From positions 3,100,001 through 3,164,000 of the forward strand of contig NC_043013.1 in NCBI RefSeq assembly GCF_006345805.1: a stretch of DNA of 64,000 nt. The letters are read 5' to 3'. The notes beneath the pieces were generated by a model. The model did no database searches. It saw only the letters and a program-made list of their open reading frames with translations, and was not told the origin of the DNA. The translations under genes and the position numbers were made by a program. This document shows positions 44,078-52,094 of this stretch, one piece after another; the first letter of the stretch is position 1; each line of letters starts with the position of its first letter. This DNA comes from Octopus sinensis (lineage: Eukaryota).

Positions 44078-44575
44078 AATAACGTCTTCGCCACCATTTA
44101 TACTAGCGCCACCAGCATCACACCAACCATGCATCGTTTTATATCACTACGCACCATGCTACATTGTGTATACCACACACACTCACTCTCTCTCACTCTT
44201 TCACTCTCTCTCCCTCTTTCACTCTCTCCCTCTCACTCTCTCTCCCTCTCTTACATACACACGCGCGCACGTATCTTCAATCTCTTTCTCTTCTTTCCTC
44301 TCTTTTACAATATATTCTTTTATTCTTTTATTCTTTTATTTGTTTCAGTCATTTGACTGCAGCCATGCTGCAGCACCGCCTTTAGTTGAGCAAATCGACA
44401 CCAGGACTTATTCTTTGTAAGCATAGTACTTATTCTATCGGTATCTTTTGCCGAACCGCTAGATTACGGGGACTTAAACACACCACCATCAGTTGTTAAG
44501 CGATGTTGGTGGGACAAACACAGATGCACAACATATAAATCATATAAGCACACAATATATACATACATACATACA

Positions 44576-44616
<41 letters not shown>

Positions 44617-44651
44617 TAAACATAGTAAATATATATATATATATATATATA

Positions 44652-45282
44652 TAAACATAGTAAATAAATTATTATTACCGGTGACCTAGCACAAAAGACA
44701 AATTAGTCATTAGGCTATATGTTATTCCTATATATGTACATTAAAAGGCCTCTAAAAGAAGAAGCAAGTACTAGATACACAAAAAGGGGATAAATTCATG
44801 AAATGGAAAGAAAATCAAAAATCAAAAAAGAGGCCTTTTAATGTACTTATATAGGAATAACATATAGTCTAATGACTAATTTGTCTTTTGTGCTAGGTCA
44901 CTGGTAATAATAATTTATTTTATTACCCTATTTACTATGTTTACATATTGTTCGATAAATTTGCTCGTAGACCTTCTACCGGCATCCTCTCTGTTCGCCG
45001 GGTATGTTTTGCGTCTGCGCACTGGTCTGAAAAGTCAGAGAATGCAGGTCGTTAGATTTGCACGTGCTTCTAACGATATGTACTTCTAGGATTACGAAGG
45101 CTGCTTGCTGATGAGTCTAGCCTTGGCAGATAAATTATATTCATTTGCTAAAAAAAAAGACGAAACTGCAGTACAAGATGAGCTGAGTTGGTAAACGTTT
45201 TTGATTTTCTTTCCATTTCATGAATTTATCCCCTTTTTGTGTATCTAGTACTTGCTTCTTCTTTAGAGGCCTTTTAATGTAC
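44652..45282 (+). mobile_element. 436-bp HHR-containing unit with terminal direct repeat and upstream inverted partial copy
   Basis: agaggccttttaatgtac at 44829 and 45265; 44652-44828 is the reverse complement of unit end joined to unit start. Confidence 0.88.
45104..45177 (+). ncRNA. Type I hammerhead ribozyme with extended stem II
   Basis: cttg-CTGATGA-gtct..tggcagata/tcatttgcta..agac-GAAA-c-tgca-g-TA/caag. Confidence 0.9.
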
Positions 45283-45658
45283 TAATATATATATAATATA
45301 ATATTATATATATATATACATATACAGTTTCCTTCTACCAAATCCACTCACAAGGCTTTGGTTGGCTCGAAGCTATAACAGAAGACATTTGCCCAAGGTG
45401 TCACGCAGTGGGACTGAACCCGGAACCATGTGGTTGGTGACGATACCGGTATGAATTTGAATATCTTTAACAATTCAAAATAATGACTTATTACTTTTAT
45501 TCCTACCTCACTTCATCTAATTGTATATATATATATATATCGTTACTTTTCATTAAAATGCCTTTATTTTTTATATATCCAAGTGCATTTCGCTTTTTTC
45601 TTTTTACATTCCCGATATCTATACCAAATGTAGACTCTTTTCTCTTTGAAACCTATTT

Positions 45659-45712
<54 letters not shown>

Positions 45713-45984
45713 TTTACAACGACCTCGAACCCACGAGTAAAGAGTACACAAGAGAGATAGAGAGAGGCAGAAACAAGGAAAATGCCACTTGTATTTGAAC
45801 ACTATACAAATATTCTTTTAAAAAAAATTTTCTTTTAATTTTTCTAAATTCTGTAACAATTAAACAATTTAATTGTTTAATTGTTACAGTTGAAAAAGTG
45901 TCAATGACTGAAACCGGTACTGAAATGTTTTTTATGAAATTATTTTAGCATTTTCTATCTTGACGTTTTTTCCATATATATAAA

Positions 45985-49767: not shown

Positions 49768-49911
49768 TACAGATGTTCCGCTATGTTAAGCATGGTATAT
49801 TATATTGGCTCGTGCTTTTGTACATTGGTATGTTTCGTGTATTTCTAGACATGTAAATAAATTAAATTGGGATGTGTACACACACACACACATACATCCA
49901 CAGACACAGAC

Positions 49912-52094
<2,183 letters not shown>

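What the first reader, a model, noticed from the sequence alone, without database searches (positions are those of the whole stretch)
44652..45282. 436-nt HHR unit whose inverted copy reads across the end-to-start junction
Seen: the plus-strand unit (44829-45282) is bounded by an 18-bp direct repeat and contains an intact HHR (45104-45177) and several hairpins. The upstream inverted segment (44652-44828) reads the unit's last ~85 nt straight into its first ~100 nt, a longer junction than the plus-strand copy holds. Established: an inverted 5' partial repeat is a hallmark of PLE insertions. Inference: the template was a circular or multimeric 436-nt non-coding RNA copied by PLE machinery.
Basis: partly seen in the sequence, partly recalled or inferred. 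Interest (0 to 1): 0.72.

Follow-up and report, generated by a model that had tools for sequence, protein, structure and literature searches.

The report
Penelope-pasted hammerhead retrozyme, two-start insertion
This is one copy of a non-coding 436-base jumping repeat with a hammerhead-ribozyme motif, a new family of a known genomic parasite (retrozymes), whose copies end at two fixed points and whose young sister family forms uniform head-to-tail arrays, so it was likely pasted by a Penelope-type enzyme that likely copies a circular RNA from both cut DNA strands.

Summary
Real, and a new member of a known kind. The window holds a two-armed insertion of an ORF-less 436-nt repeat with a type I hammerhead (compensatory changes across copies), landed in a (TA)n tract. 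The 18-bp 'direct repeat' is not a boundary or target duplication. It is the start of a second pass that stops at a fixed 3' end (site A). The inverted arm stops at a second fixed end 95 nt further on (site B). Family-wide, 136 of 164 pieces end at A or B, and 5' ends are free. Of 58 distinct two-armed insertions, 43 pair A with B and none repeats a site: the Penelope 'tail', which a protein-coding Penelope family in this genome also shows. A young 404-nt sister family forms 1-11-unit arrays with seamless joins and variants fixed across an array, as rolling-circle copying would give. The junction itself is ordinary family interior. Not shown: cleavage, a circular RNA, the partner enzyme. The scan noted this pattern before in a 352-bp repeat of this genome (e1-9877025).

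The parts
44336..44540 (+). Left half of the abundant host repeat that was interrupted
   Evidence: 28 hits among 302 loci (some overlapping) join this half to 45321-45440 across a short (CA)/(TA) tract: the empty site
44555..44652 (.). Left target (TA)n tract; holds a stray 12-nt duplicate of the site-B end at 44618-44629
44653..44821 (-). Inverted arm: unit 369-436, then 1 to about 120 with a 12-nt deletion; outer (3') end at site B, i.e. the arm that carries the tail
44822..44828 (-). Head-to-head joint of the two arms, with a 7-nt duplication
44829..45264 (+). Main arm, one full 436-nt pass; no ORF (longest stop-free frame 69 aa, read round the circle); the start point is this copy's 5' truncation
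44854..44948 (+). The 95-nt 'tail' between site A (unit 18-25) and site B (unit 113-120), here read through as interior
   Evidence: 3'-end histogram: 56 ends at 25, 55 at 120, of 164 pieces
45104..45177 (+). Type I hammerhead motif: stem I CUUG/CAAG, core CUGAUGA, stem II with a long loop holding a hairpin, GAAA, 2-bp stem III, predicted cut after GUA at 45173
   Evidence: core intact in 52 of 57 family passes
45265..45282 (+). Start of a second pass ending at site A (the '18-bp direct repeat'); not a target-site duplication
   Evidence: the same end recurs in the other copies
45283..45324 (.). Right target (TA)n tract
45321..45440 (+). Right half of the interrupted host repeat

Best explanation
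The stretch is one insertion of a non-coding, hammerhead-bearing 436-nt repeat whose copies end at two fixed sites, and it was likely made by a borrowed Penelope-type RT/GIY-YIG protein that likely nicked both strands of a (TA)n tract and likely copied a circular unit-length RNA from site A on one strand and from site B on the other. Shown: dispersed family, fixed A and B ends abutting (TA)n, free 5' ends, A-with-B pairing in two-armed insertions, copies longer than one unit that read through the ribozyme cut site, and uniform seamless arrays in the sister family. Inferred: transcripts with two ribozymes self-cleave, possibly as dimers or with protein help, and monomers are ligated into circles. 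Inferred: two enzyme subunits prime at A and B, and the two cDNA ends join head to head by microhomology. Inferred: the protein comes in trans from a (TA)n-targeting PLE.
For: 3' ends: 136 of 164 pieces at A or B, 109 of those 136 with a TA-run flank by a strict rule. Two-armed insertions: 26 of 37 A+B and 0 same-site (Fisher p 1.3e-7). In a second set picked by a ribozyme pattern rather than by ends: 18 of 23 A+B (17 of 21 after removing two local duplicates), 0 same-site (p 2.3e-5 on 18). An RT+GIY-YIG family of this genome (781 aa) also ends in (TA)n at two sites about 35-39 nt apart, with the tail on one arm in 3 of 3 scorable pairs among 30 loci. This matches the two RT start sites of PMC11167929. 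Hammerhead stems covary (stem I G-C 12 / A-U 11, U-A 18 / C-G 4; 0 of 500 shuffles reach the score). Sister family of 404 nt: 40 of 40 main arms have their outer end at or next to B, 1.0-11.3 units long. Of variants at sites covered at least 3 times, 53 are fixed in every pass, 97 single, 12 partial. The 19 long arrays carry 14 distinct fixed haplotypes, 3 with a private fixed change. Interior joins are clean: B context exact in 110 of 113, cut-site context without indel in 144 of 149, no tail-skipping join in family 1. There is no pile-up of 5' ends at the cut site (5 of 164 in 344-356, about 5 expected). Passes within one insertion are more alike (0.96-0.97) than between insertions (0.91) in 72 of 72 comparisons.
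Against: No circular RNA and no cleavage were shown. Folded as a circle, the window's unit does not form the ribozyme (stem pair probabilities 0-0.02); locally stem II forms (0.95) but stem I is weak (0.09-0.19) and stem III absent. No autonomous partner shares sequence with the unit among 36 GIY-YIG loci, and no PLE ORF adjoins it. Family 1 arms reach only about 2.1 units; the long-array evidence comes from the 68%-identical sister family. Only 3 of 19 long arrays have a private fixed change, and parents may be unsampled. Sister-family 5' ends are not uniform (KS p 0.001; crowded at unit 281-390 around the cut site at 325), which could reflect cleaved linear multimers. One family-3 insertion (L225) has both ends near A (31 and 39). 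15 of the 58 two-armed insertions have one end at neither site. The window copy was classed as B by hand because of its 12-nt deletion.
Confidence: 0.68

Rival explanations
1. Same element and same Penelope-type priming at A and B, but the template is a linear, incompletely cleaved multimeric transcript of an existing tandem array, and arrays grow at the DNA level (unequal crossing-over or slippage) after insertion.
For: Uncleaved RNA is the main substrate of a PLE in vitro (PMC11167929). The DNA-level route is proposed in bioRxiv 10.64898/2026.07.22.740005. Sister-family 5' ends crowd near and just downstream of the cut site. Seamless joins are expected here too.
Against: Linear copying cannot lengthen an array, yet 14 haplotypes each have arrays of 4 or more passes. 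The 11.3-unit array L167 has 3 single-pass changes only, leaving little time for repeated crossing-over. Nested partial variants are few (12 against 53 fixed) and fall mostly in the noisiest arrays. The 5'-end crowding overlaps AT-rich sequence (rho 0.44, p 0.10).
Confidence: 0.2
2. A linear monomer is copied repeatedly by template jumping from its 5' end back to its 3' end or to a start site.
For: Some insertions hold internal jumps (L006, L021, L026, L248, L176). The idea was raised for another element in note e1-8019547.
Against: No scar at B (110 of 113 exact) or at the cut site (144 of 149 without indel), no A-to-121 joins, no 5'-end pile-up at the cut site in family 1. Arrays never switch multi-site haplotype.
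Confidence: 0.07
3. The inverted arm is a fold-back (self-primed) copy of the first cDNA, and A and B are only places where a strand anneals to (TA)n.
For: Several joints are palindromic (L065 353/353, L027 415/415, L075, L247, L271). Self-priming is proposed in PMC3846280. Both sites carry TATA/ATAT.
Against: Other TATA/ATAT sites (unit 248, 308) are hardly used. A B-ended inverted arm beside an A-ended main arm (15 cases, the window among them) holds a join to the tail that fold-back of that main arm cannot always supply. One-armed copies use both ends (11 A and 11 B). It may still explain the short arms that end elsewhere.
Confidence: 0.05

Closest known systems
Animal non-LTR retrozymes (Cervera and de la Pena 2020, PMC7229834, passages and Discussion read; Li et al., bioRxiv 10.64898/2026.07.22.740005, parts 1-3 of 5 read)
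   Same: ORF-less unit of a few hundred bases, low GC, one type I hammerhead per unit, monomers to multimers, dispersed; PLE mobilisation and circular templates already proposed.
   Different: New sequence lineage with at least three families (436, 404, 460 nt; about 68% and 62% alike). Insertion ends are mapped here; 'target site', 'microsatellite' and 'inverted' each have 0 occurrences in PMC7229834. Circles were shown there by experiment, not here.
EN+ Penelope-like elements with inverted pLTR and tail (PMC8557442 and PMC3846280, passages; PMC11167929, parts 1-2 of 4)
   Same: 5' truncation, partial tandems, head-to-head inverted arm, tail on one end only, microsatellite target, two RT start sites downstream of the hammerhead.
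   Different: No ORF. The tail is about 95 nt against the reported 30-40 bp. The one-tail rule is counted here (43 A+B, 0 same-site), whereas the papers say 'often' or 'optionally', and the in vitro study saw no start-site difference between strands.
PLE hammerheads (Cervera and de la Pena 2014, PMC4209133, passages)
   Same: Type I core, 2-bp stem III with a palindromic loop, likely dimeric; circle-templated more-than-unit copying proposed there.
   Different: Not a minimal motif: long loop II with an internal hairpin and an extended stem I.
L1 twin priming
   Same: Both target strands prime cDNA and give an inversion.
   Different: Here both priming sites are fixed and the two arms overlap in template, up to 484 and 729 nt in L015.

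Membership tests
Non-LTR retrozyme | Type I hammerhead in each unit | tested here: met
   (52 of 57 passes intact)
Non-LTR retrozyme | Unit of about 150-450 bp, no ORF, no LTR | tested here: met
   436 nt; longest stop-free frame 69 aa
Non-LTR retrozyme | Head-to-tail tandem copies with at least two ribozymes | tested here: met
   family 1: L010, L014, L015, L020; sister family up to 11.3 units. The window copy itself has one ribozyme.
Non-LTR retrozyme | Self-cleavage | not testable with these tools
   covariation supports the fold; folding of the whole unit does not predict it
Non-LTR retrozyme | Expressed as circular RNA | tested here: inconclusive
   only contigs of runs guessed to be RNA were available
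Non-autonomous PLE | Fixed 3' ends with optional tail, free 5' ends | tested here: met
   tail about 95 nt, longer than reported
Non-autonomous PLE | Inverted 5'-truncated arm with the tail on one end | tested here: met
   43 of 58 A+B, 0 same-site
Non-autonomous PLE | AT-rich or microsatellite target | tested here: met
   109 of 136 ends; empty sites
Non-autonomous PLE | Sequence shared with the pLTR of an autonomous PLE | tested here: inconclusive
   none in 36 loci drawn from 147 matches of 5029 GIY-YIG candidates
Autonomous PLE | RT + GIY-YIG ORF | tested here: not met
Plant-type LTR retrozyme | Type III hammerhead in LTRs, fixed ends, 4-bp target duplication | tested here: not met
   type I motif, free 5' ends

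The most novel reading that the evidence does not exclude
These families are a genomic record of the Penelope mechanism: an asymmetric enzyme dimer always starts one cDNA at site A and the other at site B on opposite strands of a double-nicked (TA)n target, and it rolls round a ribozyme-made RNA circle up to 11 times. The young 404-nt sister would be a minimal, possibly still active substrate with which rolling-circle target-primed reverse transcription could be shown directly.
Probability: 0.45. Interest if true: 0.62.

Novelty: new member of a known kind. Interest (0 to 1): 0.38.

Why it matters
How Penelope elements make their tandem, inverted and tailed insertions, and whether animal retrozymes really move through RNA circles, are open questions that the cited papers leave as proposals. 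This lineage gives countable support (strict A-with-B pairing; uniform, seamless arrays) and exact start sites for a bench test. The locus itself is an ordinary, roughly 5%-diverged parasite copy with no sign of a host role.

Tried and rejected
Rfam at gathering threshold: nothing. 18-bp repeat as a target duplication or unit boundary: rejected, it is family sequence ending at site A. Longer linear parent: not seen in 59 + 35 segments. Autonomous partner: blastn of the units against 36 GIY-YIG loci and tblastn of 12 PLE or GIY-YIG proteins against the family loci and the window found no link; a Pfam accession recalled for a PLE domain is not in the library. Expression: no RNA holder listed. 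Contigs of runs guessed to be RNA carry family variants over most of the unit, and run X3 has one 434-nt contig for the 404-nt sister, which equals unit + 30, the length a closed loop would have if the word size is 31 (word size assumed). Contigs cannot tell a circle from tandem RNA or DNA, so this is not used as evidence. Look-up of earlier findings by sequence: nothing. Template jumping: tested and disfavoured.

Full report
Observation. The + strand holds a 436-nt period (44829-45264, then 18 more nt), and the - strand of 44653-44821 reads unit positions 369-436 and on to about 120, with a 12-nt deletion just before its end. Both outer ends run into (TA)n. The insertion splits an abundant host repeat at its internal (CA)/(TA) tract; 28 hits in 302 loci, some overlapping, show the empty site. 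The hammerhead is a type I motif (Rfam 25.3 bits, E 0.0013, under the gathering score). In 23 distinct copies from three families, 89% of cells pair and stem I changes on both sides (G-C 12 / A-U 11; U-A 18 / C-G 4). None of 500 shuffles reaches the covariation score, and slid controls pair at 30-41% (related copies inflate such scores).

Family. An exact 29-nt ribozyme pattern occurs 73 times, its reversed control 0 times. Mapping 94 segments on a multimer of the unit gave 164 pieces: 56 end at position 25 and 55 at 120, and 136 fall in the classes A (12-45) or B (108-122). The exact base is blurred by TATA/ATAT shared with the target. 5' ends are spread over the whole unit. Many arms exceed one unit, up to 913 nt, and read through the ribozyme cut site; the window's main arm does too.

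Two starts, one per arm. In the first set 37 insertions have two head-to-head arms: 15 long-A/short-B, 11 long-B/short-A, 0 A+A, 0 B+B, 11 with one end elsewhere (p 1.3e-7; the window copy classed B by hand). That set was picked by similarity to queries that favour certain ends. A second set of 35 new segments picked by the ribozyme pattern gave 18 A+B, 0 same-site and 5 other, two of these 23 being local duplicates. Palindromes are not simply purged, since perfect ones survive (L065, L027). A third family (460 nt, about 62% alike) has the same two ends: of 9 two-armed insertions read by eye, 5 are A+B, 3 have an odd end, and one (L225) has both ends near A. This is the PLE tail, described as often present at only one end (PMC8557442, PMC3846280; passages) and shown in vitro to lie between two RT start sites (PMC11167929). 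A 781-aa RT+GIY-YIG family of this genome (489 exact matches of a 3' pattern) ends in (TA)n at two sites about 35-39 nt apart, with one tail in 3 of 3 scorable pairs. It shares no sequence with the unit, so it shows the type of enzyme, not the partner.

Circle or multimer. Next to one copy lies a 404-nt sister family, 68% alike, 96-100% identical between chromosomes. All 40 insertions examined have their outer end at or next to B and scattered 5' ends, and are 1.0-11.3 units long; one has an inverted arm, ending near A (the sample favours long, young copies). Arrays are uniform: 53 variants are fixed in all passes, 97 single, 12 partial, and 19 long arrays carry 14 haplotypes. Joins at B and at the cut site are clean, and family-1 5' ends do not pile up at the cut site. 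Each haplotype therefore passed through one monomer that was then multiplied without scars. Rolling-circle copying does this in one step, as proposed in PMC4209133 and PMC7229834. Linear multimers plus DNA-level expansion remain possible, and the crowding of sister-family 5' ends at 281-390 may point that way. In family 1, passes of one insertion are more alike than passes of different insertions in 72 of 72 comparisons, though highest of all in only 23.

Limits. No cleavage, no circle and no partner were shown, and the whole-unit fold hides the ribozyme. RNA data were contigs of runs only guessed to be RNA and are not used as evidence.

Novelty. Retrozymes, their PLE link, the tail and the circle model are in print. 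Six full-text searches listed no paper on this family or with a count of A-with-B pairing. Subscription papers, repeat databases and all supplements were not seen and may hold either. This scan has already noted the one-tail pattern in a 352-bp repeat of the same genome (e1-9877025) and similar elements in other genomes. Verdict: new member of a known kind, ordinary as a locus, useful as mechanistic evidence; interest 0.38.

Noticed in passing
L091:3945-5951 (G000:C19) and L158-L196: Very young 404-nt sister retrozyme, arrays up to 11.3 units on many chromosomes, main arms ending only at site B; the best candidate for bench work.
   Followed up: yes
L158:640-1440, L197-L226: Third, older family (460 nt) with a homologous hammerhead and the same two ends; 1947 first-look candidates.
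   Followed up: partly
L112-L126, L273-L302: Young RT+GIY-YIG PLE family (781-aa frame, CxxC before the nuclease) that targets (TA)n, has a 35-39-nt tail and carries a hammerhead-like motif with U3-A8 in place of C3-G8 about 75 nt before its end.
   Followed up: partly
window 45801-45982: Fragment of another repeat (75-83% to L212, L104, L020, L194) with a similar U3-A8 hammerhead-like motif at about 45890-45920.
   Followed up: no
window 44618-44629: 12-nt duplicate of the site-B end inside the TA tract, as if copying started, slipped and restarted.
   Followed up: no
sister-family arrays: Array lengths show a gap between 2.7 and 4.1 units, and 5' ends crowd at unit 281-390; unexplained.
   Followed up: partly
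L091:3130-5951 and L158:964-4685: Young arrays have landed in the (TA)n tract at the end of older relatives, so insertions nest tail to tail.
   Followed up: no
L114:6360-7001, L115:6290-6960: Another canonical type I hammerhead family in inverted arrangement; many further hammerhead-like motifs lie in random flanks.
   Followed up: no
L046-L048 (G000:C27): A 223-nt piece of the unit repeated at about 12.7-kb spacing, within what looks like a larger tandem duplication.
   Followed up: no
window 49906-52094: 2.2-kb (ACAG)n microsatellite.
   Followed up: no
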